Source: an uncultured bacterium
Lineage (GTDB): Bacteria > Oederibacteriota > Muellerivitia > Muellerivitales > Muellerivitaceae
Direction of reading: 5' to 3'
Assembly: GCA_964392085.1 (NCBI GenBank)
Contig: CAYMOV010000002.1
Location: 27,314 to 91,313, forward strand
DNA: 64,000 bases
The notes beneath the pieces were generated by a model, which had not been told where the DNA came from, searched no databases, and saw only the letters and a list, made by a program, of their open reading frames with translations. The translations under genes and the position numbers were made by a program. Positions 37,475 to 53,165 of the stretch are shown in pieces (the first letter of the stretch is position 1; each line of letters starts with the position of its first letter).

Positions 37475-37551
37475 GCCCTCGTAGCTCAGATGGATAGAGC
37501 GACCCTTTCCTAAAGGGTAGGCCACGTGTTCGACTCACGTCGAGGGTACCA
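37475..37551 (+). tRNA. tRNA-Arg: tRNA-Arg (anticodon CCU)
   Basis: Acceptor GCCCTCG/CGAGGGT, D-arm GCTC-AGATGGATA-GAGC, anticodon arm ACCCT-TTCCTAA-AGGGT, T-arm ACGTG-TTCGACT-CACGT, encoded CCA. Confidence 0.8.
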
Positions 37552-39271: not shown

Positions 39272-39970
39272 ATGTCCAACTGGAAGCCTAATCTTCATAT
39301 TGAAATCGAGCAGAAGGAACCCTGGGAAAAGGCGCTGGAATGGGCCAAGTCCAAGCAGGAAATCCTGGCGGTGGCCGCCATCCTGATCCTGTTGGTTTCC
39401 GTGGGCATCCCCTATTACCTTAAGAGCCAAGCCCAAACCGAAAAGGACGCACTGCAAAAACTCAACGTGGCCCAGTATTACCTCGGGTCCAAGGTGGACC
39501 CCAAGAACGGGCCCTTCAAGACCGACGACGAGAAATACAAGAACTCCCTCCAGCAGTTCGAGCAGATCTACCAGCAGGACGCCGGCACCTGGGCCGCCAA
39601 GGCCGCGCAATTTTACGTGGCCAAGTGCCAGTTGATCATGGGCCAGAACTCCCAGGCATACGTATCCTTCGATGAGGCGTCCCAGCGCCTGAAAGGCACC
39701 CCGCTGGGCGAGGCTTCCATGCTGGGTAAGGCCATGGCCTTGGTGATGCAGGAAAAATGGCCGGAAGCCATCGGGGTCTATAACGCCTACTTGACCCAAT
39801 ATCCCAACGGTTTCCTCGTGGAGGAAGCCCGGATGAACATGGCGGACGCTTATAACAAGTCGGGGGACCGGGCGCGGTCCCAGGAGACCCTGGAACAGGT
39901 CGCGAAAGAGGACCCGAAAGGGAATTACGGGCTTGAAGCCGCGCGGCTCCTGAAGAAATCAGCCTCCTAA
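39272..39970 (+). CDS. Single-pass membrane protein with periplasmic TPR-like domain (YfgM/UPF0070-like)
   Basis: N-terminal TM ILAVAAILILLVSVGIPYY, then helical TPR-like repeats (AQFYVAKCQLIMGQNSQAYVSF; EAIGVYNAYLTQYPNG). Confidence 0.55.
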   Translation: MSNWKPNLHIEIEQKEPWEKALEWAKSKQEILAVAAILILLVSVGIPYYLKSQAQTEKDALQKLNVAQYYLGSKVDPKNGPFKTDDEKYKNSLQQFEQIYQQDAGTWAAKAAQFYVAKCQLIMGQNSQAYVSFDEASQRLKGTPLGEASMLGKAMALVMQEKWPEAIGVYNAYLTQYPNGFLVEEARMNMADAYNKSGDRARSQETLEQVAKEDPKGNYGLEAARLLKKSAS

Positions 39971-39989
39971 ACGGTCACCACCCTGACCC

Positions 39990-41147
39990 TCAACCGGCGT
40001 TACCCCAGGCCTGGATCAACCGATCCAGGCCTTTTTCATAGGTCCCCGGCTCGCCCAATAGGCTGATGACCCAAAAGCCATCCACTGGAAAATCAAAAAA
40101 GGCGCCGGGAAGGGCCCAAACGCCCCGATCCAAGAGCCGTCTGGCCATCAATTCGTCCCCCAAGGCGGGATCCACCTGTTGAACCAGGGCCGACCACCCG
40201 CCTTCCGAAGGCCAAAGGCGCCATTGGCTTCCGAGGGGCGCCAAGGCGCGGTCCAACCGACCTTTGTTTTCCAAGACCCGGGTTAGGATGGCTTCCCGTA
40301 CGTCCCCTCCCATCCTCAGGAGATCCGGTAAAGACAACAGCACGGGCGATCCGACCGAAAGGGCCAGGTCGGCCGAGAATTCCAGCCGCTCCTTGGCTTG
40401 TGCCACCAACCGGGTCGGCCCACGGAGGCCCATCCAGGAACACTTTAATTGCGGCAACCCACAGGATTTGGAAAGCCCACCGAGGGTGAAGGTCAAGGCC
40501 TGTGGTTCGAAGGAGACCCGTTTCGGTTTCCCCGTCCAACCGTAATCCCAAAAGACCTCATCGAGGACCAGGGCCCATTGGTTTTTGGCGCAGAGGGAAT
40601 CCAGGAACTTCAAGTCCGATGGGGAGAGGTAGGTGCCGGTCGGGAAATGGGGGGTGATCGCCACCAAGACCCTGGCTTGGTCCTGGGGAATGGACTCCAG
40701 GGCCTGACGATCCAGGGGCCAACCCGGTTTGGCGATCAACGGATAACCCATGGGCTGGAGTCCCTCGGCCTGGGAAAGGTGAGCCAAGAGGGGGTACCCG
40801 GGGGTGGGGAAGAGTACGCCCTGCCCCGGATCCGCCATGAGCTTCATAACCAGTGAATAGGCCTCGCTGGTACCGGAAGTCAGGAAGAGGTCGTCGGGGG
40901 ATTGGGTTTGACCTTGACGTTGATACTCTAGGGCCACAGCTTCCCGTGACGGTCTCAATCCCTGTGGGTCGGGTTCGTAGGGACCGATGGAGATTCGAAG
41001 ATCTTTGAGACCAGACGGATAGGGAAGTCCCACGACCGTCGGATTGGAGGAGGACAAGTCGATCAGGCTGTCCTTTTGGGACTCGATCGCCTGAAAGAGC
41101 TCATTGGGGCTTAAATCCTCCGGATATCTGGATGAAAAGTTCAACAT
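39990..41147 (-). CDS. Pyridoxal-phosphate-dependent aminotransferase (class I/II fold)
   Basis: LTSGTSEAYSLVMKLMADPGQGVLFPTPGYP and the PLP-lysine block FTLGGLSKSCGLPQLKCSWM. Confidence 0.75.
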   Translation of the reverse strand: MLNFSSRYPEDLSPNELFQAIESQKDSLIDLSSSNPTVVGLPYPSGLKDLRISIGPYEPDPQGLRPSREAVALEYQRQGQTQSPDDLFLTSGTSEAYSLVMKLMADPGQGVLFPTPGYPLLAHLSQAEGLQPMGYPLIAKPGWPLDRQALESIPQDQARVLVAITPHFPTGTYLSPSDLKFLDSLCAKNQWALVLDEVFWDYGWTGKPKRVSFEPQALTFTLGGLSKSCGLPQLKCSWMGLRGPTRLVAQAKERLEFSADLALSVGSPVLLSLPDLLRMGGDVREAILTRVLENKGRLDRALAPLGSQWRLWPSEGGWSALVQQVDPALGDELMARRLLDRGVWALPGAFFDFPVDGFWVISLLGEPGTYEKGLDRLIQAWGNAG

Positions 41148-41459
41148 GAAGGCCTCAAGTTAAACTTTAACGCAATGAATATGATTGGGCATTTAGGGGC
41201 TTTTAGGGTTAGTCGACCCCGGGGATCCCCTATGAGATTAGAAATGTTTGGAAAACCGGGCCTTTCAACGGTGAATCGGGGTCCTAAACGAAACCTTTTC
41301 AATAAAACCAACATTTTTGAGGGGCTGAGCAGGTGCAGACCTGCGACTGCCTTGGAGAACTTCGTTTGAGGTCCTGGTCCAACCAGTCCGTTTTGAAACG
41401 CGAAAGGACCGCATTGAGCAAATGAGACGGTACATGCACGTGTTGCTGATGAGAAACAA

Positions 41460-41483
41460 TCGTTCAAAAAAACAGCATTTAAA
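41460..41483 (-). promoter_or_regulatory. Copy A of the bipartite motif (minus-strand reading CCGTTTTTGCATTTAAATG-CTGTTTT-TTTGAACGA), about 300 bp upstream of the minus-strand aminotransferase gene
   Basis: Read directly. Contains the perfect 12-bp palindrome GCATTTAAATGC. Same half-sites and 7-nt spacer as copies B, C and D. Confidence 0.5.
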
Positions 41484-41604
41484 TGCAAAAACGGCCTATC
41501 TGAGTGACCTAAACGGAGTAAGCACCTGAGGAGCCTCAAGGGTTGGACCCAATTGGCTTTAATGCACCTGAAAAATCTATAGTTAAGGTTGTGGTTATAA
41601 AGGT

Positions 41605-42678
41605 TCATTGTAATTTGTCGCGGCTGATGAGTATACGGAAAGTTTGGAGGATGGCCCCATGGGGACCGCCGGTGAGTTTCAAGGCATAGGCCCCAAAGGC
41701 CTTCTTGTGGGCGTCGCGGGCGCCCTTGGAGGCCATTTTGACGTAACTCTCGCTGACCGAGATGCTGGAATGGCCCATCAAGTCCCGGATCTCATACACG
41801 CTTGCGCCCGCCTCGGCTAAGCAAGACCCAAAGGTGTGCCTTAAAACGTGGACTGTGAGCTCGTCCGGGGACTCAAAGCCGGCCCAAAGGGCCGCTTTCT
41901 TGACCCATTGCTCCAGGAAATGCGGATGAATGGGCTTGAGGGAGTTCCTAGGACTGCAAAAAAGGTATGGGGAGGAAGCCAACTTCGCCTCCGTTTTACG
42001 GTCCTGAAGATATTTCTGGACCAGTTTCTTGGTCGCCAGGGTCATGGGAACGGACCGTTCCTTATCGCCCTTACCGATGACGGTGACCAGGTCCTCCGGT
42101 AGTTGGATATCCCGGACCTTTAGGCCGGCGATCTCGGAGACTCGGAGGCCGCACTCGAAGCCCAGGCGTACGGTCAAACTGACCTGGAGATCTTCCAGAA
42201 GGTCCGTCTTGAGCGAAGCCAGGAGGCTTTGGCGTTCCGACATGGGCAAGGGCCTGGGATTGCGCTTGGGCGAGCGGATCGGCAGGTTGTGGAAGACCGC
42301 CGTAGGATCCGTGGCCACCAATTGGCTGGCGGCCATATGGCGGTAAAACGACCGGGTGGTTCCCAGGATCCGTTTCAAGGACCTGGTGGAATAAGGAGGC
42401 CGGGGTTTGCCGGTGGGCGTTTTGCCGGCTTGGGCGAGAAAGCCCGCGAAACGGGTCATGTCCTGGTGGGTCGCCTGGAGGGGCCCTGGAACGGAGGATT
42501 CATCCAAGAAATACTTCAGCACCCGGAGGTCCTGGTGGTAATTGGTTTGGGTATGCTTGGATTTGCATACCGCCAGGAATTCGGAATAGGGTTTGAGGGT
42601 CCGTAAATCCTCAAAGCGCTGGAAGTCGATCGTTTCATCCATGAAACTATTATATCTATAAATATAGAAGATGTTCAA
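41605..42678 (-). CDS. Tyrosine-type site-specific recombinase/integrase (phage integrase family)
   Basis: Catalytic-domain motifs: GLRVSEIAGLKVRDI (Arg box), HVLRHTFGS (HxxR), and the LMGHSSISVSESY region with the catalytic Tyr. N-terminal SAM-like domain. Confidence 0.85.
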   Translation of the reverse strand: MNIFYIYRYNSFMDETIDFQRFEDLRTLKPYSEFLAVCKSKHTQTNYHQDLRVLKYFLDESSVPGPLQATHQDMTRFAGFLAQAGKTPTGKPRPPYSTRSLKRILGTTRSFYRHMAASQLVATDPTAVFHNLPIRSPKRNPRPLPMSERQSLLASLKTDLLEDLQVSLTVRLGFECGLRVSEIAGLKVRDIQLPEDLVTVIGKGDKERSVPMTLATKKLVQKYLQDRKTEAKLASSPYLFCSPRNSLKPIHPHFLEQWVKKAALWAGFESPDELTVHVLRHTFGSCLAEAGASVYEIRDLMGHSSISVSESYVKMASKGARDAHKKAFGAYALKLTGGPHGAILQTFRILISRDKLQ

Positions 42679-42780
42679 GGCTCATTTGGAGGCGTGGAGT
42701 CACAGGATTCCGTTCGATGGGTCCTTGAAGGTTCTTTTCATCTCCGAGCCGGTTCACCTGGAAAAAAACCTAAATTAAGC

Positions 42781-42814
42781 CGAATTTGCGTTTAAATGTC
42801 GTTTATTTGAACGA
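42781..42814 (+). promoter_or_regulatory. Copy B of the bipartite motif (CGAATTTGCG-TTTAAATG-TCGTTTA-TTTGAACGA), about 100 bp from the integrase start codon
   Basis: Read directly. Shares a 16-nt identical stretch CGAATTTGCGTTTAAA with copy C. Confidence 0.5.
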
Positions 42815-43904
42815 TGGTTGGAATCCGTGGATCTGATTACCCTTTTCGATTCAGCCCTGTTTAGTCTGGAGCGGTCAGGATCACGGACCGATTTGACCTT
42901 TCTTGGGACTGTCCGCGCTTCATTAAGCTTTCGGAATGACCCTGGAAGGCCTTGAGGACAACGGATTGCGCCAAGCCAGGGGTTCAAGTGCCCCTTGAAG
43001 GCTTCCAACTGGGATCATCGGGCGTCCCAATGGATTCGGTTCTCGGGGCTTGATCAAGGCTGGGTTACCCGGCCAGCCTGGGACTTCCTGAGGCACCCAA
43101 CCCCGTTCCGATGACGGCTATTTTCCGACCAGACGAAAGATCTTGGCAGGTTGGGACCGCCGAGGGGTCCTTGAGCCGGTTCAAGCCAGGGTTTGGCTTC
43201 AAGTGGTTTACCCTTTGAATGTCCGAGGGCGCCTTGAAGTCGAACTTGAAGGGTTCGAGGGCATTTCTGGGTCCGGCCTGTCCTGGGGTGGTCCCCGCAA
43301 AATGTTGGCTCATGGGTTTGGACTCGTTTCGGCGCCCAGCAAATCCTTGGCTCCCGGCTTCGCAGTCGCTGCCGTCTTCGCCTGGCTATGGCTCCCAGGG
43401 CGTCGGACATGCCGTTTTCGAGAACAGCCCTTTAAAGTATTTGTCATTCCGGAGAGGTATGAGGCTTGCCGGGCATGGCATTGCGAAATCAGGAGCAGAC
43501 CCGACAAGGAACCTGCCATCAGTTGATAAGTGAAAATGTTGCAGCGGCCTTCACCTGGAGGGTTCAAGCGATACCTCATCGCCCTGGGTGGAGCTCGCAG
43601 GGAAATTTACCCAGTTTCCACGCGGTAGGAGACCACCGAGCCTGGTTGTTGTTCCCCGCTTTTTGGGTTGAAGTCAAACTTGAGCAGGACTGGTTCGGCT
43701 TTCAGGGATTCTCCGAGGGTCGATGGGAGACAACCGGTATCCACCCCGAAGACGCGATCGGGTTCGTTTTGGTGGCCGTGGGTCTTTTGAGGCCCGGGAT
43801 TTCGATCAAAGGACGCGTTAGGGTGACTTGAGCGTTGTCGACGGAGGGATGGAAAGGATTAAATGAACCAGGGACTTTGTGTCAGAAGAATCCAGGGAAT
43901 GGGT
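42815..43904. other. About 1.1 kb non-coding, lower-GC stretch between motif copies B and C. Dense in CTTGAAG/TTCAAG-type short repeats, no credible ORF
   Basis: Only short overlapping ORFs on both strands with no recognisable product. Recurrent CCTTGAAGG, GGTTCAAG and GGCTTCAAGTGG motifs. Possible degraded mobile-element cargo, binding-site array or long ncRNA. Confidence 0.4.
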
Positions 43905-43938
43905 CGAATTTGCGTTTAAAGGGCCGAAATTTCAACGA
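43905..43938 (+). promoter_or_regulatory. Copy C of the bipartite motif (CGAATTTGCG-TTTAAAGG-GCCGAAA-TTTCAACGA)
   Basis: Read directly. Same architecture and spacing as copies A, B and D. Confidence 0.5.
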
Positions 43939-44027
43939 CCGATCGGTGGGATGAAGCCGAGGACGCTTCCTGATTTCGCTTCGGATCGGTCCTATTTGGG
44001 ATCCTCCCGTGGCGGATGAGAGTCGAT

Positions 44028-44813
44028 TCATCCAGGGAGGGTGCCCACGAACTCGTTCAGAAGGTTTTGAAATTGGTCCGGCGATTCCCAGGGCACCAGA
44101 TGGCCGACTTGATCCAACACTTGAAGTCGGATCTTGGAACTGAGCGAGGCGTTCTGGCGGGCCTCGTCGGTTGAAACGAACTGATCCTCGGCGCCGGCCA
44201 GCCAGAGGGCCGGGACCCGAAGGACCCTCAGGGTCTCGGATTGGTCCCGTCGGACCGCCATGGCCCGTTGCGCGCCCGCGATGGCTCGGGGCGGGGCTAG
44301 ACGGACGCAGTCCCGGACCCGTTCCAGCAACGCGGGGTTCCCTTGGATCGTCGTGGCCCCCAGTAAATTGTTCGGCATGACCTTCAACAGGAAACCGGTC
44401 CCCTCCCGTTCGACCTTGTCGGCGACCTCCAACCTCCTGAACCGGGCGGTCTCCTCATCCAGCCCGGCCTTGGTTCCGGCGAGCAACAGCCCCTCGACCT
44501 GGTCCGGAAAGAGCCGGACGTACTCCAGGGCTCCATAACCTCCCATGGAGACCCCCCCCAGGACCACTTTTTGGCGGACACCCAAGTCCTCTAGGGCCCG
44601 TTGGAGGCTACGAGCGAAGTCTTCCAGCGTCCATCCTGCCTCCGCCCAGGGGGTGGAACCGAATCCCGGGAAGTCCGGGAGGATCAGTTGGGTTTGAGGC
44701 GGGGGGAGAAGCTTGTCATAAAGGATATGGGACAGGGGATAGGCGTGGAGCAGGACAAGGGGTCGGCCTTCCCCGCGGGCCTGGACCTGGATTTTTAGGT
44801 TGGAAGCGGACAT
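44028..44813 (-). CDS. Alpha/beta-fold hydrolase
   Basis: LVLLHAYPLSHILY, nucleophile elbow GGVSMGG, and a C-terminal His (DQVGHLVPWESP). 261 aa. Confidence 0.75.
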   Translation of the reverse strand: MSASNLKIQVQARGEGRPLVLLHAYPLSHILYDKLLPPPQTQLILPDFPGFGSTPWAEAGWTLEDFARSLQRALEDLGVRQKVVLGGVSMGGYGALEYVRLFPDQVEGLLLAGTKAGLDEETARFRRLEVADKVEREGTGFLLKVMPNNLLGATTIQGNPALLERVRDCVRLAPPRAIAGAQRAMAVRRDQSETLRVLRVPALWLAGAEDQFVSTDEARQNASLSSKIRLQVLDQVGHLVPWESPDQFQNLLNEFVGTLPG

Positions 44814-44883
44814 GTCGGGACCTCGTTCCGATCGATCTTAAGCGTTTTCGTGGAAGGTGTCATGATCAAGGTCCCAAAACAAT

Positions 44884-44917
44884 CTTCGAAAAAAACAGTG
44901 TTTAAATGTAAATTCGC
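44884..44917 (-). promoter_or_regulatory. Copy D of the bipartite motif (minus-strand reading CGAATTTACA-TTTAAACA-CTGTTTT-TTTCGAAGA), about 70 bp upstream of the alpha/beta-hydrolase start
   Basis: Read directly. Weaker second half-site. Confidence 0.45.
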
Positions 44918-45221
44918 CACTTCCGCCTGGTTTTTAAATATGATTTTTAAAATCACCCAGCAACGGATTCGGTTCAAACCCTTTCACTTAAGGATGCCGG
45001 GTGAAGCGTCTGATGAACCTGAAGTTAGCCTGGTAAACCTCAAATCAAGCGGGTTAGATGGCCAGAAGCCCTAGATCACCCATCGCCAAGCCCATCGAAG
45101 TCCAAACGGGAAGTGGAACCTCCTGAAGGGGGCTGGAGACTCCGGCGATAGTCCCCCTAGGGAGTGGGTCTTGATAAGACCATGGAGTCCCAAACGGATG
45201 ACAGGGAAAGGGTTATGTCGT

Positions 45222-45246
45222 CTTGCTCAAGCGTCACTTGAACCCC
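45222..45246. other. Perfect 10-bp-stem hairpin CGTCACTTGA-ACCCC-TCAAGTGACG abutting the stop codon of the minus-strand dehydrogenase gene
   Basis: Exact inverted repeat with no adjacent U-run on either strand. Contains the CTTGAA/TTCAAG motif that recurs in the island. Confidence 0.45.
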
Positions 45247-46200
45247 TCAAGTGACGGGTGTGAGTGGCTCTTTCCCGCTTAAAACCAGGTCGATGTTCCG
45301 AGCGGCCAGGAGGGCCATCGTATCCCGGGTCTGGACCGTCGCGCTTCCGATGTGGGGCAAAAGGGTCACTCGATCCGAGCGAAGGAGACGGGGATCCACT
45401 TGGGGCTCCTTTTCGTAGACATCCAAACCTGCGTAAAAGGGTATTCCCTCCCCCAAGGCCCGGGCGAGGTCCTTCTCGATATGGATGGGGCCACGGCCGG
45501 TGTTGATGAAGACCGCCGTGGGTTTCATACGTTTGAAGTCCCGGTAGGTGAAACGGCCCCGGGTTTCCGGGGTCAAGGGCGCCGTGACGACCAGGAAGTC
45601 CGACTCCTGAACCAGCCGGTCGAAGGGGACGAACCGGGCTCCCAAAAGCCTTTCCAACCGGGGATCCAAACGGCGCCGGTTGTGGTAGATCACCTTCATG
45701 TCCCAGCCCCGACTCCTCCGGGCCACGGCTTGGCCGATGCGGCCGCATCCATAGATGCCCAGGGTCTTCCCTCGGAGATCCAATCCCAGGAGCATGAGGG
45801 GGTGGGTGCCCTTGAACTTTCCGGACCGGACCAACCGTTCCCCCTCGGGGATCCGCCTGGCGCAGGAAAGCAACAGGGCCCAGGTCAGGTCCGCGGTGGC
45901 GTCGGTCAGGACCTCGGGGGTGTTCGTGACCCGGATGCCCAGTTCCCGGGCCGCGGCCAGGTCGATGTTGTTGAATCCGACGGCGAAATTGGCGACGACC
46001 TTGAGGGCCCGGCCGGCCCGCAGGACCCGCGACGTCAGGGGGTCCGCGAGGGTTGTGAGGAGGCCTTGGTAGGGGCCGATTTTGCGGGTGAGCTGGTCCT
46101 CGGTGAGCTTCTTCTTGTTCCAGGTGACGGAATAGCGCCGCCGGAGGAAGGCGTAAGCGACTTGGGGGATCTCGTAGGTGATGAGGACCGTGGGTTTCAT
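45247..46200 (-). CDS. D-isomer-specific 2-hydroxyacid dehydrogenase (glyoxylate/hydroxypyruvate reductase-like)
   Basis: NAD-binding GIYGCGRIGQAVARR and catalytic His region LPHIGSAT. The start MKPTVLITYEIP is at 46200. The ORF is open further upstream but that extension is Arg/Pro-rich junk. Confidence 0.8.
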   Translation of the reverse strand: MKPTVLITYEIPQVAYAFLRRRYSVTWNKKKLTEDQLTRKIGPYQGLLTTLADPLTSRVLRAGRALKVVANFAVGFNNIDLAAARELGIRVTNTPEVLTDATADLTWALLLSCARRIPEGERLVRSGKFKGTHPLMLLGLDLRGKTLGIYGCGRIGQAVARRSRGWDMKVIYHNRRRLDPRLERLLGARFVPFDRLVQESDFLVVTAPLTPETRGRFTYRDFKRMKPTAVFINTGRGPIHIEKDLARALGEGIPFYAGLDVYEKEPQVDPRLLRSDRVTLLPHIGSATVQTRDTMALLAARNIDLVLSGKEPLTPVT

Positions 46201-46241
46201 GGCTTGTTTATAACAAAGGAAGGGATCCGGGCCAAGGGCCG

Positions 46242-47177
46242 TTATTCGGCAGCCAGATGGGCCCTGGCCGCGGTGAGCTCCGCTTCCTTCACGGCGGTCA
46301 ACTTGGGGAATTTGAGGCCCAAGGACCGGATGGTGTCGGTCAGGATGTCGGCCACGAGGGTCCGGGCGGCCCATTTGTGGTTGGCGGGGATCACGTACCA
46401 AGGGGCCCACTCGGTGCTGGTGGCGGAGAGGGCCTCCTCATAGGCCTTCATGTAGTCCTTCCAATAGGCCCTTTCCCTCAGGTCATTGGCCGAGAACTTC
46501 CAATGCTTGTCCGGATTGTCCAGGCGGGCCATGAACCGGTCCTTCTGCTCCTTCTTGGAGATGTGGAGGAAGAACTTCAGGACGAGGATCCCATTGCGGA
46601 CCAGGTGCTTCTCGAAATGCCGGATGTCGCTGTAGCGGGATTTCCAGAAATCGGTCTGCCGTAGGACCGGGGGGACCTTTTGGCTTTCCAGGATGTCGGG
46701 GTGGACCTTCACCACCAATACGTCCTCGTAATAAGACCGGTTGAAGATCCCGATGCATCCGCGCTCCGGAAGGGCCTTCATGTAGCGCCAGAGGAAGTTA
46801 TGGTTGATCTCGAGGGCGGAGGGCTGCTTGAAGCCATGGACCTGGCAACCCTGGGGGTTCAACCCGGTCATGACGTGCTTGATGAGGCCGTCCTTGCCGG
46901 CCGCGTCCATGGCCTGGAGCACGATGAGGATGCCGAAGGTGTCGCTGGCCCACAACAGCTCCTGGGCCCCGGACAGGTTCTCGAGGTTCTTCCGGAGGAG
47001 CCGTTTGGCGACCTTCTGCACCCGTTCTTCGCCGTACCGGTCGATCAAGTCCTTGCTGGAGGACCAATCGGGGTCGTGGTCCTTCAGGGAGAGGGCTTCC
47101 CCGGGTTGGACGAAGAATTGTCGGTGGAATTTTCGCAGGACCATCGGGGCGCCTCCTGGGCGGCGGTAGCATGCCAT
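46242..47177 (-). CDS. ppk2: Polyphosphate kinase 2 family (polyphosphate:nucleotide phosphotransferase)
   Basis: Walker A-like LIVLQAMDAAGKDG, lid and Walker B regions, and the C-terminal WAPWYVIPANHKWAAR typical of PPK2. The true start may be the internal Met (MVLRKF...). Confidence 0.8.
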   Translation of the reverse strand: MACYRRPGGAPMVLRKFHRQFFVQPGEALSLKDHDPDWSSSKDLIDRYGEERVQKVAKRLLRKNLENLSGAQELLWASDTFGILIVLQAMDAAGKDGLIKHVMTGLNPQGCQVHGFKQPSALEINHNFLWRYMKALPERGCIGIFNRSYYEDVLVVKVHPDILESQKVPPVLRQTDFWKSRYSDIRHFEKHLVRNGILVLKFFLHISKKEQKDRFMARLDNPDKHWKFSANDLRERAYWKDYMKAYEEALSATSTEWAPWYVIPANHKWAARTLVADILTDTIRSLGLKFPKLTAVKEAELTAARAHLAAE

Positions 47178-47228
47178 AAAGGGGTCGGGAAGGAGGCGGG
47201 TCCGGCGGAATTAACCCACTATTTACAA

Positions 47229-48380
47229 TCAGGTTTCCGGGATCCGGGTTTGGGCGTCGGGGCGGGAGGTCAGGCCGCCGAGGCGGTCCTCCAGCTTGTC
47301 CAGGTCCCGTTGGGACTTCTCGTAGTTCTGCCGGGCGTGGCCCAACTGGCTCCCGAGCTTCTCGAAGCTCTCGCGGAAGGCCCGGAGGTGGCCGTCGAAC
47401 TGCTGGAGGTGCTCCAGCACCTCCCGGGTGTGGGCCTCCAATTCCAGGCCCTTGAGGCCCAGCAGGATGACCTGAAGGTAGGCGTAAAGGCTGTTGGGCG
47501 AGACCGGGATGACCCGCTTTTCGAGGGCGGTCGCGTTGATCGAGGAACCGTCCTCGTCCCGCAGGATGACCTCGTAATAGACGTTCTCGGCCGGGATGTA
47601 CATCAGGGCGAAATCGTAGGTGTTCTCCGCGGGGCGGATGTATTTGGAGGCGATGTCGCCGATGTGCTTCTCGACGTCCCGGGAGAACTCCCGCCGCCTC
47701 TTTTTCCGCTCGGCCTCGTCCGTGGTTTCCAGGACCCGCTTGAAGTTTTCCATGGGGAATTTCGAGTCGATGGGCACCAATCGCCCGCCCAGGAGCAGGG
47801 CCGCGTCCACCTTCAGCCCGTCGGAGAAGCCGTATTGCAGGTGGATGTGGGCCGCCGGGAGGAGCTGTTTCAACAGGTCGCCGAGGAAAAGCTCGCCCAG
47901 CCCGCCCCGCAGTTTCGGGGTCTTGAGGATCTCCTGGAGCGAGGCGATGTCCTTCCCCACCTCATAGATGCGCTTTTGGGACTCCTCCAGCTGGGCCAGG
48001 CGGTTGGTGACTTCCCGGACGGCCACGGCGGCGCCGTCCAGGCGCTTCCCCACGGAATCCTGGGTCGTCTGGAGGGTGCCGGTCTGTTCCTTCAGCCGTT
48101 CCTGGATCTCGGACCGCACCTGGTGGAGCTGGGTCTCGACCTGCTGGGAAAGGCGGCCCGTGGAGTCCATCAGGGATTGGGTCAGGTTCTGGGAAAGGCG
48201 GCTGGTCTCCCCCCGGATCTCGGTGAGTTGCTGTTGGATCAGGGGGATCGCGTTGTTGGGCTCGGCCGAGGGGCTTGAGGGCCGAAAGAATGCCCAAGCC
48301 AGGGCCGCGGCCATGCCGACGACCAAGAGGAGGAGGATCCAATCCAGGGGTGTCATGGGGGTATTAAAGCATAAACCCAT
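47229..48380 (-). CDS. rmuC: DNA recombination protein RmuC
   Basis: N-terminal TM, a long coiled-coil (QQLTEIRGETSRLSQNLTQSL...), and the conserved RmuC C-terminal nuclease-like domain (FALMYIPAENVYYE). Confidence 0.8.
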   Translation of the reverse strand: MGLCFNTPMTPLDWILLLLVVGMAAALAWAFFRPSSPSAEPNNAIPLIQQQLTEIRGETSRLSQNLTQSLMDSTGRLSQQVETQLHQVRSEIQERLKEQTGTLQTTQDSVGKRLDGAAVAVREVTNRLAQLEESQKRIYEVGKDIASLQEILKTPKLRGGLGELFLGDLLKQLLPAAHIHLQYGFSDGLKVDAALLLGGRLVPIDSKFPMENFKRVLETTDEAERKKRRREFSRDVEKHIGDIASKYIRPAENTYDFALMYIPAENVYYEVILRDEDGSSINATALEKRVIPVSPNSLYAYLQVILLGLKGLELEAHTREVLEHLQQFDGHLRAFRESFEKLGSQLGHARQNYEKSQRDLDKLEDRLGGLTSRPDAQTRIPET

Positions 48381-48473
48381 GGGACGTAGAGCCGGGATTC
48401 AGGGCCTGGGCAATGGGTAAAACGAAAATGCCGCCTTCCCCTTGGGGGAAAGGCGGCATGGCTTTTCGGGGCA

Positions 48474-49211
48474 TCAGGCCTGGGGCGCTTTGTGGTGTTT
48501 CCTGGTGCGTTTCTTTTTCTTGGCCGTCGGATGAGACGGTCCCGGCGTGTCGGTCGGGGTGACGGTGACCTCGGGGCTCGATCCCGGGGTGGCGTCCGGC
48601 GTGATCGTGCCGGTGGGGGTGGCCGTTTCCTGGGGGTTGATCTTGGCCCAAGTGCGCTTGATCCAGCTCGGTCCCGGCGTGGGGGTTGGGGACGGGGTCG
48701 GCGTGAAGGTGGCGGCCATCCGGTAATCGCTTACCAGCGAATGCTCGAACCCGCCTTGGTCGATGGACTCAACCACGTCCACCACCAGGGACCATTCGCT
48801 TTGGGGCAGCTTGAAATAGGTGCCGTAAAGGGCCAGGTGCTGGCCCGGCCGCAGGCCCTTGAGTTCGGATTGGTCGCCCAGGGCCGCCCGGAAGAGGAGG
48901 ATTGGGAAGGAATAGCGGATGTCGTCGGACGGCTGTTCCTTCAGGGAGAACTTGATCACGTTGAACTCGCGGTTGTTCAGGCCGATTTCCTTCAGGCGGG
49001 CCTGGTAGGTATAGAGGGGCTGCCACTGGTTGTCGACGTACCAGCCCTCGAAACGGATTCGCCGCCCGTTCTCGATCAGGTTGTAGTTTTCCCGCAGGAA
49101 GCTGAGCTCGACCTTCTCATAGCCCTCGAAATAGAAATCGGGGGCGGCTTTGGCGAAAAGCGCCGGCGCGGCCATGAAGGCCAGGGCGATGACGGTCAGG
49201 AATTTCCTCAT
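48474..49211 (-). CDS. Secreted hypothetical protein with Thr/Pro-rich linker and Lys-rich C-terminal tail
   Basis: Signal peptide MRKFLTVIALAFMAAPALFA. TFTPTPSPTPTPGPS...TATPTGTITPDATPGSSPEVTVTPTDTPGP. Ends AKKKKRTRKHHKAPQA. Confidence 0.5.
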   Translation of the reverse strand: MRKFLTVIALAFMAAPALFAKAAPDFYFEGYEKVELSFLRENYNLIENGRRIRFEGWYVDNQWQPLYTYQARLKEIGLNNREFNVIKFSLKEQPSDDIRYSFPILLFRAALGDQSELKGLRPGQHLALYGTYFKLPQSEWSLVVDVVESIDQGGFEHSLVSDYRMAATFTPTPSPTPTPGPSWIKRTWAKINPQETATPTGTITPDATPGSSPEVTVTPTDTPGPSHPTAKKKKRTRKHHKAPQA

Positions 49212-49891
49212 GCGGGCGTTTCCTCCCAGGGTTTAAATCGATAGCTCCACGGGTTCGAGGACCGGACCTCGACCTTGTCCCGGGCCCAAATCGATTCGGC
49301 CCTCCGGGGTTCGACCCAGGAAGGGTAAAGCTCCAACAAGGTGCCGGGTTCCAACCCCAGGCTGTGGCGAAGGCGGTCCTGGATGAAGTTGCAGTCCTCC
49401 AGTTGGATGGGGCCCCTCGGGGCGGGTCCTCCCGCCCCCAAGACCGGTAGCCAACGCCAGACCAGGGTGTAGCAGCGTTTCAACCCCGGGAGGTAAAGGA
49501 ACTCGCAATCCACCTCGGGCTCCGGGTCCTTCGCGGCTTCCGCCCCGTTCAGCCGGACTACCCGGTCTTCCCCGCCCAAAGCCGATTCGAACCAGCGCTC
49601 GTGCTTGCGGAGAAAATCCGGATCCAGCGCTTGGGTAGGTTCCAGGAGGCGGTTATAAACGCTGAAGATCCTCTCGGAAGCTTCCTCCGGGTTCAACAAG
49701 GGCATCATGGTCCGAAAACGCCGGGTGAGCCTAGCCACGGACTCATCCGGCAGCGACCGGGACAATTTGAACAATTCTCCGGCTTGGCGAACGGCGCACC
49801 GGACATAAAGAAAAGCGTGGTTTCGGGATGGGCCTGGGGAGGCGTGAGAGTCCGCCGTCAGGTCCGGGTAGGCGAGGCAAGGGGCGTTCAA
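49208..49891 (-). CDS. Hypothetical protein (227 aa), no recognisable domain
   Basis: ORF with GC3-typical coding bias. 4-bp overlap with the downstream gene suggests co-transcription. Confidence 0.4.
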   Translation of the reverse strand: MNAPCLAYPDLTADSHASPGPSRNHAFLYVRCAVRQAGELFKLSRSLPDESVARLTRRFRTMMPLLNPEEASERIFSVYNRLLEPTQALDPDFLRKHERWFESALGGEDRVVRLNGAEAAKDPEPEVDCEFLYLPGLKRCYTLVWRWLPVLGAGGPAPRGPIQLEDCNFIQDRLRHSLGLEPGTLLELYPSWVEPRRAESIWARDKVEVRSSNPWSYRFKPWEETPA

Positions 49892-50148
49892 GGGGTCTCC
49901 CGGGGTCTAAAATGTTCGCACATTATAACGATTGCCGGTGCCCCTCCCAATGGAAAAAACCTCGGGAAAACCAGGCGGGAGCCTACGGAATGGGCCTGGT
50001 AGGTGGGTTGGGTGGGGCATTGGTTCAGGAGCCGAGGGCTGGATGGGCCTAAAAATGCCAATTCAGTGGGTTCCGGCCGTAAATGACGTTAGGTCTCGAA
50101 ATAAAAAACCCCGGCCGGAAGGTCCGGTCGGGGCTTGGGGCACTCGAA

Positions 50149-52167
50149 TTAACGGAGAACGCCGACCCAGATCCCAGAGGTAGTCGACCATCCGGAAAAG
50201 GGTTGGGGATACCACAGCCCAGGGGATCCCAAAAAAGCGATCTTGACCCCATCCGGCGAGAGGGCCGGGGCATGGTGTCCGAATTGGGGTTGGATAAGGG
50301 TGGCGCTGGTCCCCACGTTGACGTCTAAGACCCGGATATTCCGGACAGGGTTGACGAAAAAGTGGGTCCATCGGGGAGTGGTTTCCTGGAAAACCAACTG
50401 TTGTCCATCAGGGGTCCATGCCACATCGCTTATCTCACCGTAGGTCGAATATACATCCTTGGCCATTTCACCATCCGTCAGGACGGCCCAGATGTCGGTC
50501 GTTTTCCCCGTTTTGACGGTATAGGCCAACCGGAAATTATCCGGGGCCGCGACCACCAGGTTGATTCGTGAGACTTCCCTCGTTTTGGGCTTGGCCTGAA
50601 TCTTCAACTTGGCTTCGACGCTCGAAAGGGCTTGTTGGCCCTCGGGGGTCAGGTTGGACTCGTCATTCGACTGTTCGGGCCGGCCAACCACGGTGATCTT
50701 TTTGGTGGCCAAGTCCATTGTGCAAACAACCGGGTGTTCCAAGTCTCCGCCCACCCAGGTAATTTTCTTGCCGGCGTCGAACCATCCGAAAGACTTCATG
50801 GGCTTCGGGTCCCGGTAAAGGACCAGGGGCTTACCCCCCTTCAAGGGGTCCACGGTCCGGACCTCGTAATCCTCGCCGACCCGGGTCCCGTAAAGGAATT
50901 TCCCCGTGACGTCGGACCAAGGCTGGCCCTCTTCCTCGGCTAGGACGCCCTCCCGGGTCAAGGGCTGGGCTAAACCGGATTCGGTATCGACCCGATACAG
51001 GTTTCGGACGCCCTGAACGGTGAAGTCGGCCACCAGGCCCTTGCCCCCCAAAACGAAGAGCGGACGGAATTTGCTCTCGCCGGCCGGCACTGAGAGGGGA
51101 TGATCGGCCTTGGCCGGATCGAAGACCAAAAGGTCCCAACGCTTTTCGTTCAACTGGGCCAGTGCCAAAGTCTTGCCATCGGGCGAGTAAGTGAGGCTCG
51201 AAAGCTCGCCCTGGACGCTCTTATAGGCCGGCCCCAAATCCACCAACTTCAGCGTATGGGCGCCTGGCCGCAACATGCCGATGGCGGGCGGAATGAGGAG
51301 CAAAACCGTGAGCCCCAGGAACAAGTAGCGGAATTTCATCCGCCGCGGGGAATCGTCGGACGAGGAGGTCAGGAGACTTGCGATGGCGCAGATGAGGGCA
51401 TAGAAACCCAGGATCATGGAGGGGAAAAGCTCCTGCCCCGCGGACCAGAGGATGAAGGACATGGCCGCGATGGCGATGGCAATCATGGCCATGATCCGTC
51501 CTGCGTTGTCGGGGAACCGGTGGGAGACGTAAGCCAGCATGAACCAAACCGCATACCCAATGATCACCAAAAGGAACGCGATCATGCTCACCAAGCTTTC
51601 CACGGGAGGCCATCCCCAATGCACGAACGGGATGGTGTGGAGGTCGACGCCGAGGAGGTAGACGCCGATTGAGTACAGGATAAAACCCTGGACCGCCAAG
51701 AGGGAGATCTTCCAACCGTGGGCGTCCTTGCGGTCCTTCATGACGCCGATTTCATAGGTGCGGCGGGTCATGCCGCGGCTATGGGCGATCGCCAGGAAAC
51801 CGAACCCGGCGAACAAATGGGCCAGGAAAGTCCCGTAGGCGGGGACGTTTTGGATCCATCCCAAGAAACGGATTTTCGAGAGGATGCCGTTGAGTTGGGG
51901 GATCAAGGACAGGAGGGCGAGAAGCAACAATCCCAATCCGGTCAGGCCCCAGACCAGGGTGGCCATCCAGGAAGGCGGATCGGGGATATATCGAGGCTTC
52001 GGGGGCGCGATCGTGGCTTGCGTGGAGGCTTGGCGCCGTCCCCTCGTGGGCCCTGACCCGGGACCGGTCGCGAACTTATTGGGTGCGGCCCCGGCGGAGG
52101 GCTTGGCTTCCTGGTGGGCATCGGCCAGGGAGCTCAGGTCGTTCATCATCTGGGAATCATCAGCCAC
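50149..52167 (-). CDS. Polytopic membrane protein fused to a C-terminal TolB-like (PD40/WD40-type) beta-propeller domain
   Basis: About 8 TM helices in the N-terminal about 300 aa. C-terminal repeats with SPDGKTLA, TPDGQQLVF and SPDGVKIAF, the PD40 signatures of TolB-like propellers. Confidence 0.6.
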   Translation of the reverse strand: MADDSQMMNDLSSLADAHQEAKPSAGAAPNKFATGPGSGPTRGRRQASTQATIAPPKPRYIPDPPSWMATLVWGLTGLGLLLLALLSLIPQLNGILSKIRFLGWIQNVPAYGTFLAHLFAGFGFLAIAHSRGMTRRTYEIGVMKDRKDAHGWKISLLAVQGFILYSIGVYLLGVDLHTIPFVHWGWPPVESLVSMIAFLLVIIGYAVWFMLAYVSHRFPDNAGRIMAMIAIAIAAMSFILWSAGQELFPSMILGFYALICAIASLLTSSSDDSPRRMKFRYLFLGLTVLLLIPPAIGMLRPGAHTLKLVDLGPAYKSVQGELSSLTYSPDGKTLALAQLNEKRWDLLVFDPAKADHPLSVPAGESKFRPLFVLGGKGLVADFTVQGVRNLYRVDTESGLAQPLTREGVLAEEEGQPWSDVTGKFLYGTRVGEDYEVRTVDPLKGGKPLVLYRDPKPMKSFGWFDAGKKITWVGGDLEHPVVCTMDLATKKITVVGRPEQSNDESNLTPEGQQALSSVEAKLKIQAKPKTREVSRINLVVAAPDNFRLAYTVKTGKTTDIWAVLTDGEMAKDVYSTYGEISDVAWTPDGQQLVFQETTPRWTHFFVNPVRNIRVLDVNVGTSATLIQPQFGHHAPALSPDGVKIAFLGSPGLWYPQPFSGWSTTSGIWVGVLR

Positions 52168-52196
52168 GGTATCCTCCTGGACTTGGACGGACCGGC

Positions 52197-53165
52197 TTAA
52201 AACGCGCGGTAATCGATCTGCATGTTCCCGAGCCGCCGCACCGCGACGCCGCCCGGCACCATCGAGTCGAACAACTCATCCCATTTCACCGGCCGATCCT
52301 GGCGGATCTTCGGGTCGCCTTTGAGGCCCCCCAGGTCGGCCGCCAGCTTCACGGCGTCGTAATAATTGCCGAGGGAGTCGATGAAACCCTCGCGGAGGGC
52401 CATGCGGCCCGTGAAGACGCGGCCGTCCGCCCATTGCTTGACATGAGCCCTCACTTCGGCCGTGGTGACCTGGGAGGCCTTCTTGCCGAGACGCTTGGCC
52501 AGGATGGCCTGGAAGGCGGCCTTGCGGCCTGACACCACATCCTCGACGAACTGGTCGAAGACGTCGTTGATGGTGGACTGCATGTAAAGGCGCTCGGCGG
52601 GGGTCATGGGCCGGTCGAAGTTGCCCGTATCCTTGAAGGTCCCGCTCTTGATGGTCTCGAACCTTACACCGACCTTCTTCAACAGGGCGGAGGCCTCCGG
52701 CCATTGGGCGATGACCCCGATGGACCCAGTCACCGAGCCGGGATTGGCGATGATCCGGTCGCAGGCCGAGGCGATGTAATAGCCCCCTGAGGCGCAAAGG
52801 CTGGAAACGCTGGCGATGACGATCTTCTTGTTTTCTTCCCGGGCCCGTTTGATTTCGGTGTAGATCTCCTGGGAGGGCGCCACCCCGCCCCCGGGCGTGT
52901 TAAGGCGGATCAACAGGACCTTGTTGTCGCTTTTACGGAAACGTTTGATGCGACGGACGGTGTCGTCGCTGCTCTCGATGGGCCCGTCGATCTCAAGGAG
53001 CGTGATCTCACCGCTGTCCGAGAGCATGGTCATGGGTTTTCCCATGATCCGGTGGAAGGCCCAAAAGGCCACGGCCAGGCTGAAAAGGAAGAAGAACCCC
53101 AAAATCCCCAGGAGGATCCAAAGGGAGCGGTTCGATTTAGGCTTGTTTTCCGTAAGGGTGGTCAT
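52197..53165 (-). CDS. sppA: Signal peptide peptidase SppA (S49 family, 36K type)
   Basis: N-terminal TM. Catalytic Ser region GSVTGSIGVIAQ and the Lys region of the S49 fold. 322 aa. Confidence 0.8.
   Translation of the reverse strand: MTTLTENKPKSNRSLWILLGILGFFFLFSLAVAFWAFHRIMGKPMTMLSDSGEITLLEIDGPIESSDDTVRRIKRFRKSDNKVLLIRLNTPGGGVAPSQEIYTEIKRAREENKKIVIASVSSLCASGGYYIASACDRIIANPGSVTGSIGVIAQWPEASALLKKVGVRFETIKSGTFKDTGNFDRPMTPAERLYMQSTINDVFDQFVEDVVSGRKAAFQAILAKRLGKKASQVTTAEVRAHVKQWADGRVFTGRMALREGFIDSLGNYYDAVKLAADLGGLKGDPKIRQDRPVKWDELFDSMVPGGVAVRRLGNMQIDYRAF

What the first reader, a model, noticed from the sequence alone, without database searches (positions are those of the whole stretch)
42679..44027. 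1.35 kb lower-GC non-coding stretch next to the integrase, rich in CTTGAAG/TTCAAG repeats
Genes are otherwise tightly packed in this window, yet this region has only short, overlapping, unrecognisable ORFs on both strands. GC is visibly lower than in the flanks. Short repeats recur: CCTTGAAGG, GGTTCAAG, GGCTTCAAGTGG and CTTGAAGTCGAACTTGAAGG. The region is bounded by motif copies B and C, and B may drive transcription into it. It may be a long ncRNA, an iteron or binding-site array of a defunct mobile element, or pseudogenised cargo.
Basis: seen in the sequence. Interest (0 to 1): 0.55.

Follow-up and report, generated by a model that had tools for sequence, protein, structure and literature searches.

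The report
Fast-evolving spacer beside Xer-like recombinase
The 1.35 kb stretch is a real non-coding gap, but it is a lineage-specific, rapidly changing expansion of an ordinary spacer next to a conserved chromosomal recombinase gene; the more notable feature is the conserved ~45-base motif that bounds it.

Summary
Bases 42679-44027 are the largest gene-free gap in the window. No reading frame shows coding signal, no protein or RNA family matches, GC is lower than in the flanks, and CTTGAA/TTCAAG is about 6-fold enriched. The interpretation needs correcting. The "integrase" is not mobile. It is a Xer-like tyrosine recombinase held in the same gene order (2-hydroxyacid dehydrogenase, hydrolase, recombinase, aminotransferase) in about 25 uncultured lineages. 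Most of them have a 210-280 nt hydrolase-recombinase spacer with one copy of a conserved ~45-nt motif, and an inverted copy downstream of the recombinase. Only the window's clade has a 0.9-1.8 kb spacer with extra motif copies. Here the interior lies between two direct copies, B and C, which share an identical 16-nt core. Against the closest relative the flanking genes are about 90% identical, but the spacer centre cannot be aligned. Substitutions show no codon periodicity and predicted folding is no better than shuffled sequence. A few short islands, including same-strand CTTGAACCC sites, are perfectly conserved. Best reading: DNA lodged between duplicated motif copies, now mostly decaying non-coding filler with a few short binding-type sites. 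It is not a structured ncRNA and not a recognisable pseudogene. The function of the motif is unresolved.

The parts
42679..44027 (.). Expanded hydrolase-recombinase intergenic spacer (the finding). It is non-coding. The interior of about 1.07 kb lies between motif copies B and C.
42774..42823 (+). Motif copy B, about 131 nt upstream of the recombinase ATG. It is orthologous to the single spacer copy of most relatives.
43897..43947 (+). Motif copy C, a direct repeat of B, lying about 80 nt beyond the hydrolase stop. It shares the identical 16-nt core CGAATTTGCGTTTAAA with B. Its 3' half (CCGAAATTTCAACGACC) departs from the family consensus but is conserved in L006.
41452..41502 (-). Motif copy A, inverted relative to B. 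It lies about 100 nt downstream of the recombinase stop and about 305 nt upstream of the aminotransferase start. It is the best-conserved copy across lineages.
44872..44925 (-). Motif copy D, about 60 nt upstream of the hydrolase start. It is found only in the window's clade (L007 and L008 also have it).
41605..42642 (-). Xer-like tyrosine recombinase, 345 aa (Phage_int_SAM_1 plus Phage_integrase). It is chromosomal and syntenic. It scores below the NCBIfam cut-offs for XerC, XerD, XerA and XerS.
42649..42678 (-). Sigma-70-like promoter match TTGAAC-18-TATAAT that abuts the recombinase ATG. The sequence is nearly identical in L006.
44028..44813 (-). Alpha/beta hydrolase, the conserved neighbour on the other side of the spacer.
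42934..42960 (.). Conserved island GGAATGACCCTGGAAGGCCTTGAGGAC, 26 of 27 bases identical in L006.
42978..42989 (-). Conserved island holding a CTTGAACCC site (read on the minus strand).
43177..43203 (-). Two adjacent CTTGAACCC-like sites (CTTGAACCG and CTTGAAGCC). The first is conserved in L006.
43251..43259 (-). CTCGAACCC site, next to CTTCAAGTTCGACTTCAAGG. That string resembles the island at 43664-43685.
43558..43571 (-). Conserved island ATCGCTTGAACCCT (minus strand), 14 of 14 bases identical in L006.
43664..43685 (-). Conserved island GCTCAAGTTTGACTTCAACCCA (minus strand), 22 of 22 bases identical in L006.

Best explanation
The stretch is a lineage-specific expansion of the normally short spacer between a conserved hydrolase gene and a conserved chromosomal Xer-like recombinase gene.

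Shown. In most relatives this spacer is 210-280 nt and holds one copy of a conserved ~45-nt AT-rich motif (consensus AAAATGGGTCGATTTTGCATTTAAAnnnnGTTTwTTTGAAMGATTATT). A second, inverted copy lies downstream of the recombinase. In the window's clade the spacer copy is doubled and 0.75-1.2 kb of unrelated DNA lies between the two copies. In the window these are B and C, which are direct repeats with an identical 16-nt core and dissimilar flanks. The interior is not protein-coding, matches no known RNA family, and folds no better than shuffled sequence. It turns over by insertions, deletions and replacement much faster than the flanking genes.

Inferred. The interior is captured or duplicated DNA that is now mostly non-functional filler. 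The few perfectly conserved short islands, chiefly same-strand CTTGAACCC sites, are protein-binding or regulatory sites of recent origin. Any transcription across the stretch would be a by-product of promoter activity in the motif copies. The motif is the functional cis element of the locus. It is either the recombinase's own target site, or a promoter/operator module that has been copied in front of neighbouring genes. I cannot decide between these two.
For: Non-coding. Substitutions between the window and L006 show no codon periodicity in the spacer (13/14/13 and 30/26/28), against 6/17/4 in the recombinase gene.

Not a structured or known RNA.

Conserved synteny and short ancestral spacer. 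Expanded spacers (922-1810 nt) occur only in the window, L006, L007, L008 and L094.

Rapid turnover: against L006 the coding flanks are about 90% identical, motif C 88%, motif B 82%, adjacent spacer 58-70%, and the centre (43270-43530) about 30% with many gaps. The non-coding benchmark is the recombinase-aminotransferase spacer, at 66% identity with no gaps. Spacers of L007, L008 and L094 align with the window only at the motif.

Motif: 4 copies in 64 kb against 0.18 expected. 47 copies from 30 loci give a consensus with several positions at 90% or more.

B and C share CGAATTTGCGTTTAAA, including a G where nearly all other copies have A.

Conserved islands and CTTGAACCC sites.

Another variable insert in the same spacer: an HNH endonuclease gene present in L006, L012 and L015 but absent here.
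Against: Only one relative (L006) is close enough to align the interior, so both the fast turnover and the conserved islands rest on a single pairwise comparison.

Perfectly conserved runs of 14-27 nt in a background of about 60% identity argue that part of the stretch is functional, so 'filler' cannot be the whole story.

Interior GC (0.57-0.59) is well above that of the neighbouring intergenic DNA (0.46-0.49). This would fit ex-coding DNA or a GC-rich RNA.

Transcription was not measured.

The origin of the interior is unknown: there is no match in plasmids, phages, the window itself or the protein database.
Confidence: 0.55

Rival explanations
1. Integration scar of the IMEX type. The motif is the recombination site of the adjacent Xer-like recombinase, as in single-recombinase Xer modules where the site sits beside the gene. 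A small circular DNA carrying a motif copy integrated into the chromosomal copy. That left the insert between two direct hybrid sites, B and C. The insert is stabilised because C is degenerate, and it has since decayed.
For: Direct repeats B and C share an identical 16-nt core but have dissimilar flanks, like attL and attR.

B has the left flank typical of spacer copies and a canonical right half. C has the AATGGGTCG left flank typical of the other copy class and a degenerate right half, as expected of reciprocal hybrids.

Within the DNA sampled, the motif is seen only next to this recombinase.

The recombinase is Xer-like and 345 aa.

XerS/difSL and XerH/difH are genetically linked modules, with the site 16-282 bp from the gene in many species (PMC2731167). 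LME-1 integrates at the Legionella dif site and is stabilised by a modified downstream site (PMC9765430).

Gene orientation converges 1.6 kb away in all relatives.
Against: The motif has no clear dyad of 11-13 bp arms around a 6-8 bp centre.

There are two inverted copies per genome, not one.

0 of about 25 lineages have the recombinase gene flipped relative to its neighbours.

The two copies in one genome show no concerted evolution (0.704 within a genome against 0.715 between genomes, p=0.83).

In L094 the hydrolase-side copy is in the opposite orientation, which integration cannot produce.

Copy D upstream of the hydrolase is unexplained.

Cumulative GC skew has a minimum here rather than the maximum expected at a terminus.

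No cargo is recognisable.
Confidence: 0.2
2. Transcribed regulatory RNA. The motif is a promoter module, possibly two overlapping divergent sigma-70-like promoters: forward TTTAAA-16-GATTAT and reverse TTCAAA-17-CAAAAT. B and C then drive convergent transcription across the stretch. The product would be an unstructured long non-coding or antisense RNA that modulates hydrolase or recombinase expression.
For: Copies A and D sit upstream of, and point toward, the aminotransferase and hydrolase genes. The spacer copy lies 25-50 nt upstream of the HNH gene where that gene is present.

The four hexamers fall in the most conserved blocks of the motif (the hexamer assignment is my own reading).

Lineages without the motif have compact spacers of 10-125 nt, compatible with co-transcription.

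There is a weak resemblance between the motif's 3' half and the region just upstream of tRNA-Pro.
Against: Each hexamer pair matches the consensus at only 8 of 12 positions, and the promoter scan did not call them.

In B and C the forward -10 hexamer is GATGGT and GACCGA respectively.

The whole ~45 nt is conserved, including the T-run. That is more than a promoter needs.

The interior is not conserved and shows no structure signal, so any RNA would act through transcription itself or be non-functional.
Confidence: 0.15
3. Fully decayed protein-coding gene or genes. This would be a pseudogenised lineage-specific ORF or cargo whose homology is no longer detectable.
For: Interior GC (0.57-0.59) lies between coding (about 0.62) and intergenic (0.46-0.49) values. 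There are faint frame-specific codon signals at 43070-43250 and 43430-43650 and a GC-frame spread of up to 0.14.
Against: There is no homology in six frames to Pfam, to 5.8 billion proteins, or to the neighbouring genes. Substitutions against L006 show no codon periodicity. The frame signals are within noise for 300-nt windows. Spacer ORFs of relatives also lack family matches, apart from the HNH gene.
Confidence: 0.07

Closest known systems
Single-recombinase Xer modules with a gene-linked site (XerS/difSL of streptococci and lactococci; XerH/difH of epsilon-proteobacteria; XerL/dif of Legionellales)
   Same: A Xer-type tyrosine recombinase larger than XerC/D (345 aa) is conserved in the chromosome. 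A conserved AT-rich site lies 130-240 nt from the gene. Gene orientation converges nearby. (PMC2731167, PMC9765430)
   Different: There are two inverted copies per genome instead of one site. The element is about 45 nt with no clear dyad symmetry. The protein scores below the NCBIfam cut-offs for XerC, XerD, XerA and XerS. The GC-skew pattern is not terminus-like. No functional evidence exists.
IMEX elements (integrative mobile elements exploiting Xer, such as CTX phage, the gonococcal genetic island and Legionella LME-1)
   Same: Foreign-looking DNA without its own recombinase lies between direct repeats of a site next to a Xer-like gene. One flanking copy is degenerate (PMC9765430).
   Different: The insert is only about 1.07 kb with no recognisable gene. 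The repeats are not shown to be recombinase targets. The L094 orientation and copy D do not fit simple integration.
pdif modules of Acinetobacter plasmids (recalled from memory, not checked in the library)
   Same: Single genes are bracketed by inverted copies of a Xer-type site: the recombinase between A and B, and the hydrolase between C and D.
   Different: This locus is chromosomal and syntenic across lineages. The orientations are - + + - rather than strictly alternating. The sites are not dif-like in sequence. There is no evidence of module movement.
Ordinary expanded intergenic spacers and insertion scars carrying duplicated promoter/operator modules
   Same: AT-rich conserved elements lie upstream of genes. 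The spacer length is variable. The interior is poorly conserved. There is no coding or structure signal.
   Different: The element is unusually long and well conserved (about 45 nt over lineages at 55-75% protein identity). It is restricted to this locus in the DNA sampled. It has been copied up to four times within 3.5 kb.

Membership tests
Simple pseudogene (the finding's stated refutation) | Continuous, frameshifted similarity to a known protein | tested here: not met
   Ten ORFs against Pfam at E<=10 gave only one insignificant match (E=0.18). The six-frame concatenate against 5.8 billion proteins gave nothing at E<=0.01. Profile and phmmer searches with the recombinase, hydrolase, aminotransferase, dehydrogenase and HNH proteins gave negative bit scores.
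Structured non-coding RNA | Match to a curated RNA family | tested here: not met
   Rfam 15 at E<=1 on 40500-46000 gave only a chance snoRNA hit of 19 bits. Nothing reached the gathering score in the window, L006, L007 or L008 apart from tRNAs.
Structured non-coding RNA | Folding energy below shuffled controls, and conservation or covariation in relatives | tested here: not met
   z-scores are -0.22, +1.42, -0.91 and +0.81. The centre is unalignable with L006. There are too few close relatives for a covariation test.
Iteron array or plasmid/phage-type origin | Tandem or regularly spaced direct repeats of about 17-22 bp next to a replication initiator gene | tested here: not met
   TRF and the diagonal scan find no such repeats. 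No rep gene is nearby. The short CTTGAACCC sites are irregularly spaced (18 to 309 nt apart).
Chromosomal origin (oriC) | Cluster of DnaA boxes | tested here: not met
   TTATCCACA with up to 1 mismatch has 3 hits in 64 kb, none between 41 and 45 kb, against 5.2 expected.
Mobile-element integrase with its island | Patchy presence, variable neighbours, adjacency to tRNA or att sites, and mobile cargo | tested here: not met
   The same four-gene order is seen in about 25 lineages. The neighbours are housekeeping genes. The nearest tRNA is 4 kb away and separated by conserved genes.
Xer/dif single-recombinase module | Xer-type tyrosine recombinase (SAM-like N-terminal domain plus catalytic domain) | tested here: met
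   PF02899 plus PF00589. The best NCBIfam hits are XerC, XerD and XerA, but all fall below the equivalog cut-offs.
Xer/dif single-recombinase module | One 28-31 bp site with inverted arms around a 6-8 bp centre, linked to the gene | tested here: inconclusive
   A conserved site is linked to the gene. However, there are two inverted copies, the element is about 45 nt long, and only a 12-nt palindrome (GCATTTAAATGC) is present, in some copies only.
Xer/dif single-recombinase module | Location at the replication terminus | tested here: inconclusive
   Gene orientation converges at 39970-39990 in the window and in relatives. However, the GC skew changes from negative to positive there, which is the origin-like sign. 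A 64 kb window is too short to decide.
Xer/dif single-recombinase module | Recombinase-dependent recombination at the site, and a chromosome-dimer phenotype | not testable with these tools
   Needs genetics or biochemistry.
IMEX-type integrated element | Insert flanked by direct repeats of the recombinase target | tested here: inconclusive
   B and C are direct repeats with an identical 16-nt core. Whether they are recombinase targets is unknown. L094 has an inverted arrangement.
Integron | IntI-type integrase, attI, and cassettes ending in attC | tested here: not met
   The integron integrase models score 62 and 32 bits against cut-offs of 265 and 435. The neighbouring genes are syntenic core genes, not cassettes.
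Invertible DNA switch (inverton) | Segment between inverted repeats found in both orientations | tested here: not met
   The recombinase gene between inverted copies A and B has the same orientation relative to the hydrolase and aminotransferase genes in all of about 25 lineages. Read-level heterogeneity was not examined.

The most novel reading that the evidence does not exclude
The conserved recombinase and its flanking ~45-nt motif form an undescribed gene-linked recombinase/site module in an uncultured soil and peat bacterial lineage. It would be a new single-recombinase Xer/dif-like or self-flanked system. On this reading the 1.1 kb stretch is a small element captured at that site, and the degenerate copy C locks it in place. 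The variable HNH gene, the extra copies C and D, and the differently oriented copy in L094 would then be further products of activity at these sites.
Probability: 0.17. Interest if true: 0.65.

Novelty: new variant of a known kind. Interest (0 to 1): 0.35.

Why it matters
The stretch itself matters little. It is a young, fast-changing, apparently non-coding expansion of an intergenic spacer, and it should not be annotated as a mobile-element remnant, an ncRNA gene or a pseudogene.

The locus around it is more useful. A Xer-like recombinase sits in fixed synteny across many uncultured lineages. It is bracketed by a long, well-conserved, locus-restricted motif whose copy number and orientation change between close relatives.

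If the motif is the recombinase's target, this is a new gene-linked recombinase/site module, and a place where DNA capture can be watched in natural populations. If it is a promoter/operator module, it is an example of a regulatory cassette being copied in front of neighbouring genes. Either outcome can be tested with existing metagenomic reads and a simple binding assay.

Tried and rejected
Frameshifted known gene: rejected.

Decayed duplicate of the recombinase or another neighbour: considered because the A-B and B-C intervals are of similar length. Rejected.

Known RNA family or thermodynamically stable RNA: rejected.

Tandem or degenerate ~250-nt repeat structure: suggested by repeat families D1 and D2. 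Rejected by TRF and a diagonal scan against shuffles.

Plasmid or phage origin: no blastn match.

oriC: no DnaA boxes.

Sigma-54 reading of the motif: the spacing between the GG and GC elements is 10-11 nt, not 12 (my reading). Rejected.

Sigma-32-type promoters suggested by CCCTTGAA: no CTTGAA-N(11-17)-CCAT in the spacer.

tRNA T-arm remnants (GGTTCAAG): the contexts do not form 5-bp stem, 7-nt loop arms (my reading). Not pursued.

KOPS-like polar motif: CTTGAACCC-like hits outside the spacer show no clear strand polarity (13+/10- to the left, 4+/8- to the right). Not supported.

Conserved binding-site array across the clade: CTTGAA density is 6.5 per kb here, 3.3 in L006, 2.8 in L007 and 1.1 in L008, so it is not conserved beyond the closest relative.

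Concerted evolution of the two motif copies within a genome: none.

The genome-contig scan with the hydrolase found no close relative. The organism is labelled only 'bacterium' in public records, so the phylum remains unknown.
Full report
**What is at the coordinates.** The interval 42679-44027 lies between the 5' end of a tyrosine recombinase gene and the stop codon of an alpha/beta hydrolase gene. The recombinase is on the minus strand: its ORF runs to 42678 and the probable ATG is at 42642. The hydrolase is also on the minus strand, at 44028-44813. This is the largest gene-free interval in the 64 kb window.

**Coding tests.** I trained a codon log-likelihood on 25 long ORFs of the window. 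It is negative or zero in all six frames across 42700-43900, and +0.15 to +0.34 in the flanking genes. GC by codon position is flat, with a spread of 0.02-0.14 against 0.22-0.41 in genes. Ten ORFs of 45-127 aa have no meaningful Pfam match even at E<=10 (the only entry is E=0.18). A concatenated six-frame translation found nothing at E<=0.01 among 5.8 billion proteins. That search also did not return the 118-aa ORF that a gene caller predicted on a near-identical contig, so it is supportive but not conclusive.

**Composition and repeats.** GC is 0.539 against 0.620 for the window. The really low values are at the two ends, and the interior is 0.57-0.59. CTTGAA/TTCAAG occurs 8 times against 1.33 expected, and TTCAAGTG 6 times against 1.18. 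Among 418 sliding windows this k-mer enrichment ranks about twelfth. No tandem or long internal repeats exist.

**The bounding motif.** The core TTTGCRTTTAAA occurs four times in the window against 0.18 expected, all within 3.5 kb. The four copies align over about 45-50 nt:
- A, 41452-41502, minus strand
- B, 42774-42823, plus strand
- C, 43897-43947, plus strand
- D, 44872-44925, minus strand

A and B are inverted and bracket the recombinase gene. C and D are inverted and bracket the hydrolase gene. B and C are direct repeats and bracket the stretch in question.

**The 'integrase' is not mobile.** The protein has the Xer-type architecture, PF02899 plus PF00589. Its best NCBIfam hits are XerC, XerD and XerA, all well below the equivalog cut-offs. 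It has more than 100 cluster-level homologues at 55-75% identity, nearly all 335-360 aa.

I fetched DNA around 12 of these homologues by exact-protein look-up, and around about 26 more from JGI metagenomes. The same gene order appears throughout: 2-hydroxyacid dehydrogenase, hydrolase, recombinase and aminotransferase on one strand, then a convergent TPR gene, a phosphoribosyltransferase and a sigma factor. The rest of the window is housekeeping: GpsA, tRNAs, an RND efflux pump, a sigma factor, PPK2, RmuC and an S49 peptidase. So this is not a genomic island.

**The ancestral state of the spacer.** In most lineages the hydrolase-recombinase spacer is 210-280 nt. It is about 550-580 nt where a small HNH endonuclease gene is inserted. 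It carries one motif copy about 55 nt after the hydrolase stop and 130-190 nt before the recombinase. A second, inverted copy lies 150-240 nt after the recombinase stop and about 300 nt before the aminotransferase. A few more divergent lineages (L018, L019/L020, L027, L034) have compact spacers and no motif.

Forty-seven copies give the consensus AAAATGGGTCGATTTTGCATTTAAAnnnnGTTTwTTTGAAMGATTATT, with many positions at 90% or more. Long spacers of 922-1810 nt, with extra copies, are confined to the window's own clade:
- window, and the near-identical or identical contigs L001 and L013
- L006 (95% recombinase identity)
- L007, L008 and L094 (68-70%)

 Relative to the common arrangement, the window looks as if the single spacer copy had been doubled with about 1.07 kb placed between the copies. 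C keeps the normal distance to the hydrolase and B the normal distance to the recombinase.

B and C share an identical 16-nt core, CGAATTTGCGTTTAAA, which includes a G where almost all other copies have A. Their flanks differ. C's 3' half is off-consensus yet conserved in L006.

**How the interior evolves.** Against L006 the flanking coding DNA is about 90% identical, motif C 88%, motif B 82%, the neighbouring spacer 58-70%, and the centre (about 43270-43530) about 30% with many gaps. L006 also has a further 330-nt insert carrying the HNH gene between B and the recombinase. For comparison, the recombinase-aminotransferase spacer is 66% identical with no gaps, and third codon positions differ at 24-32%. 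So the interior changes by insertion, deletion and replacement, not just by substitution.

Substitutions in the alignable parts show no three-base periodicity, unlike those in the recombinase gene. The spacers of L007, L008 and L094 share only the motif with the window. None of their ORFs match a protein family. Rfam finds nothing in the window or in three relatives. The four half-interior folds have z-scores between -0.91 and +1.42. There is no similarity to plasmids, phages or the rest of the window, and no remnant of the neighbouring genes.

**What is conserved inside.** The window-L006 alignment contains short, perfectly conserved islands in a background of about 60% identity:
- 22 of 22 bases at 43664-43685
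- 14 of 14 at 43558-43571
- 12 of 12 at 42978-42989
- 26 of 27 at 42934-42960

Most of them contain CTTGAACCC, read on the minus strand, which is the sense strand of the recombinase. With one mismatch allowed, six such sites lie in the spacer, all on that strand. That is 4.4 per kb, against about 0.55 per kb elsewhere in the window. Four have orthologous sites in L006. The sequence around the sites is otherwise unrelated. L007, L008 and L094 lack same-strand copies.

**What the motif might be.**

*Recombination-site reading.* In favour: the motif accompanies a Xer-like gene; single-recombinase Xer systems keep their site next to the gene (PMC2731167); and elements that integrate at such sites end up between direct repeats, one of them modified (PMC9765430). 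B and C look like reciprocal hybrids. Against: there is no convincing dyad symmetry; there are two inverted copies per genome; no lineage has the recombinase gene flipped; there is no concerted evolution of the pair; L094 has an oppositely oriented extra copy; and the GC skew changes in the origin-like rather than the terminus-like direction, even though gene orientation converges 1.6 kb away.

*Promoter/operator reading.* In favour: copies A and D sit upstream of, and point toward, the aminotransferase and hydrolase genes; the spacer copy lies just upstream of the HNH gene where that gene is present; and the four most conserved hexamers can be read as two overlapping divergent sigma-70-like promoters with 16- and 17-nt spacers (my reading). 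Against: those hexamers match at only 8 of 12 positions, and the promoter scan did not call them. It did call a canonical TTGAAC-18-TATAAT directly at the recombinase ATG.

I cannot decide between these readings with the tools available.

**Verdict.** The stretch is real and non-coding, but it is not a structured RNA, a recognisable pseudogene or part of a mobile element. The best-supported account is a clade-specific expansion of a short spacer: DNA lodged between two copies of a conserved locus-specific motif, now turning over rapidly, with a few short conserved sites of probable binding function (confidence about 0.55). The main rivals are an integration scar at the recombinase's own site (about 0.2), a promoter-driven unstructured RNA (about 0.15) and a fully decayed gene (about 0.07). 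Interest in the stretch itself is modest. The conserved motif pair around a syntenic Xer-like recombinase is the feature worth following up.

Noticed in passing
L006 1619-2005; L012 9588-9956; L015 3800-4162: A small HNH endonuclease gene of about 122-128 aa lies between the spacer motif copy and the recombinase in some relatives. It is 62-70% identical between them and has weak PF21368/PF01844 hits. It is absent from the window, and only a 25-aa remnant remains in L011. The source pipeline did not call it as a gene on L006.
   Followed up: partly
window 39970-39990, and the whole window: Gene orientation switches from mostly plus (9979-39970) to mostly minus (39990-58638), and the GC skew changes from about -0.02 to about +0.07 near 40 kb. 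The convergence is conserved in relatives. The skew sign is origin-like while the gene orientation is terminus-like, so the two are contradictory and unresolved.
   Followed up: partly
window 41148-41604: The 155-aa ORF at 41141-41608 (minus) is almost certainly spurious. The interval is a 457-nt low-GC non-coding spacer holding motif A. It has exactly the same length in L006, at 66% identity with no gaps. Gene callers predicted similar ORFs over it in relatives (for example L007 5066-5545).
   Followed up: partly
window 42649-42678 (minus): A canonical sigma-70-like promoter (TTGAAC-18-TATAAT) ends 7 nt before the recombinase ATG, which suggests a leaderless or nearly leaderless mRNA. The sequence TATATTTATAGATATAATAGTTTCATGG is identical in L006.
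   Followed up: partly
window 41659-41683 (minus): A sigma-32-like match, CTTGAAA-N13-CCCCAT, lies inside the 3' end of the recombinase gene and points toward the aminotransferase. It may be chance, since the looser search pattern (CTTGAA-N11-17-CCAT) has 0.68 hits expected per window.
   Followed up: no
window 45227-45254: A hairpin, TCACTTGA-ACCCC-TCAAGTGA, overlaps the 3' end / stop codon of the 2-hydroxyacid dehydrogenase gene (ORF ends at 45247). It contains the same TTCAAGTG/GGGTTCAAG strings that are enriched in the spacer.
   Followed up: no
L094 384-418 and 1164-1193: In this relative (70% recombinase identity) the extra motif copy near the hydrolase is in the opposite orientation to the window's copy C. 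The two spacer copies are therefore inverted, not direct.
   Followed up: partly
L092 and L095 starts; L093 and L026 starts: Several short metagenome contigs begin about 180-195 nt upstream of the recombinase, exactly where the spacer motif copy is expected, or within about 100 nt of it. This could reflect assembly breaks at a repeat or structural heterogeneity at the motif.
   Followed up: no
window 9979-14523: A 1514-aa ORF has no Pfam match, strongly negative GC skew (-0.257 at 10-12 kb), lower GC (0.56-0.57) and the strongest local k-mer repeats in the window (CTTTAC 9 times, TGTGAA 6 times).
   Followed up: no
window 37475-37551: ARAGORN calls tRNA-Arg(CCT) here, but the Rfam tRNA model did not report it at the gathering threshold, although it reported both tRNA-Pro genes.
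   Followed up: no
L007 10876-12791: Two further adjacent tyrosine recombinase genes and an HTH regulator lie about 6 kb downstream of the conserved locus in this relative only. This is probably a genuine mobile element unrelated to the conserved recombinase.
   Followed up: no
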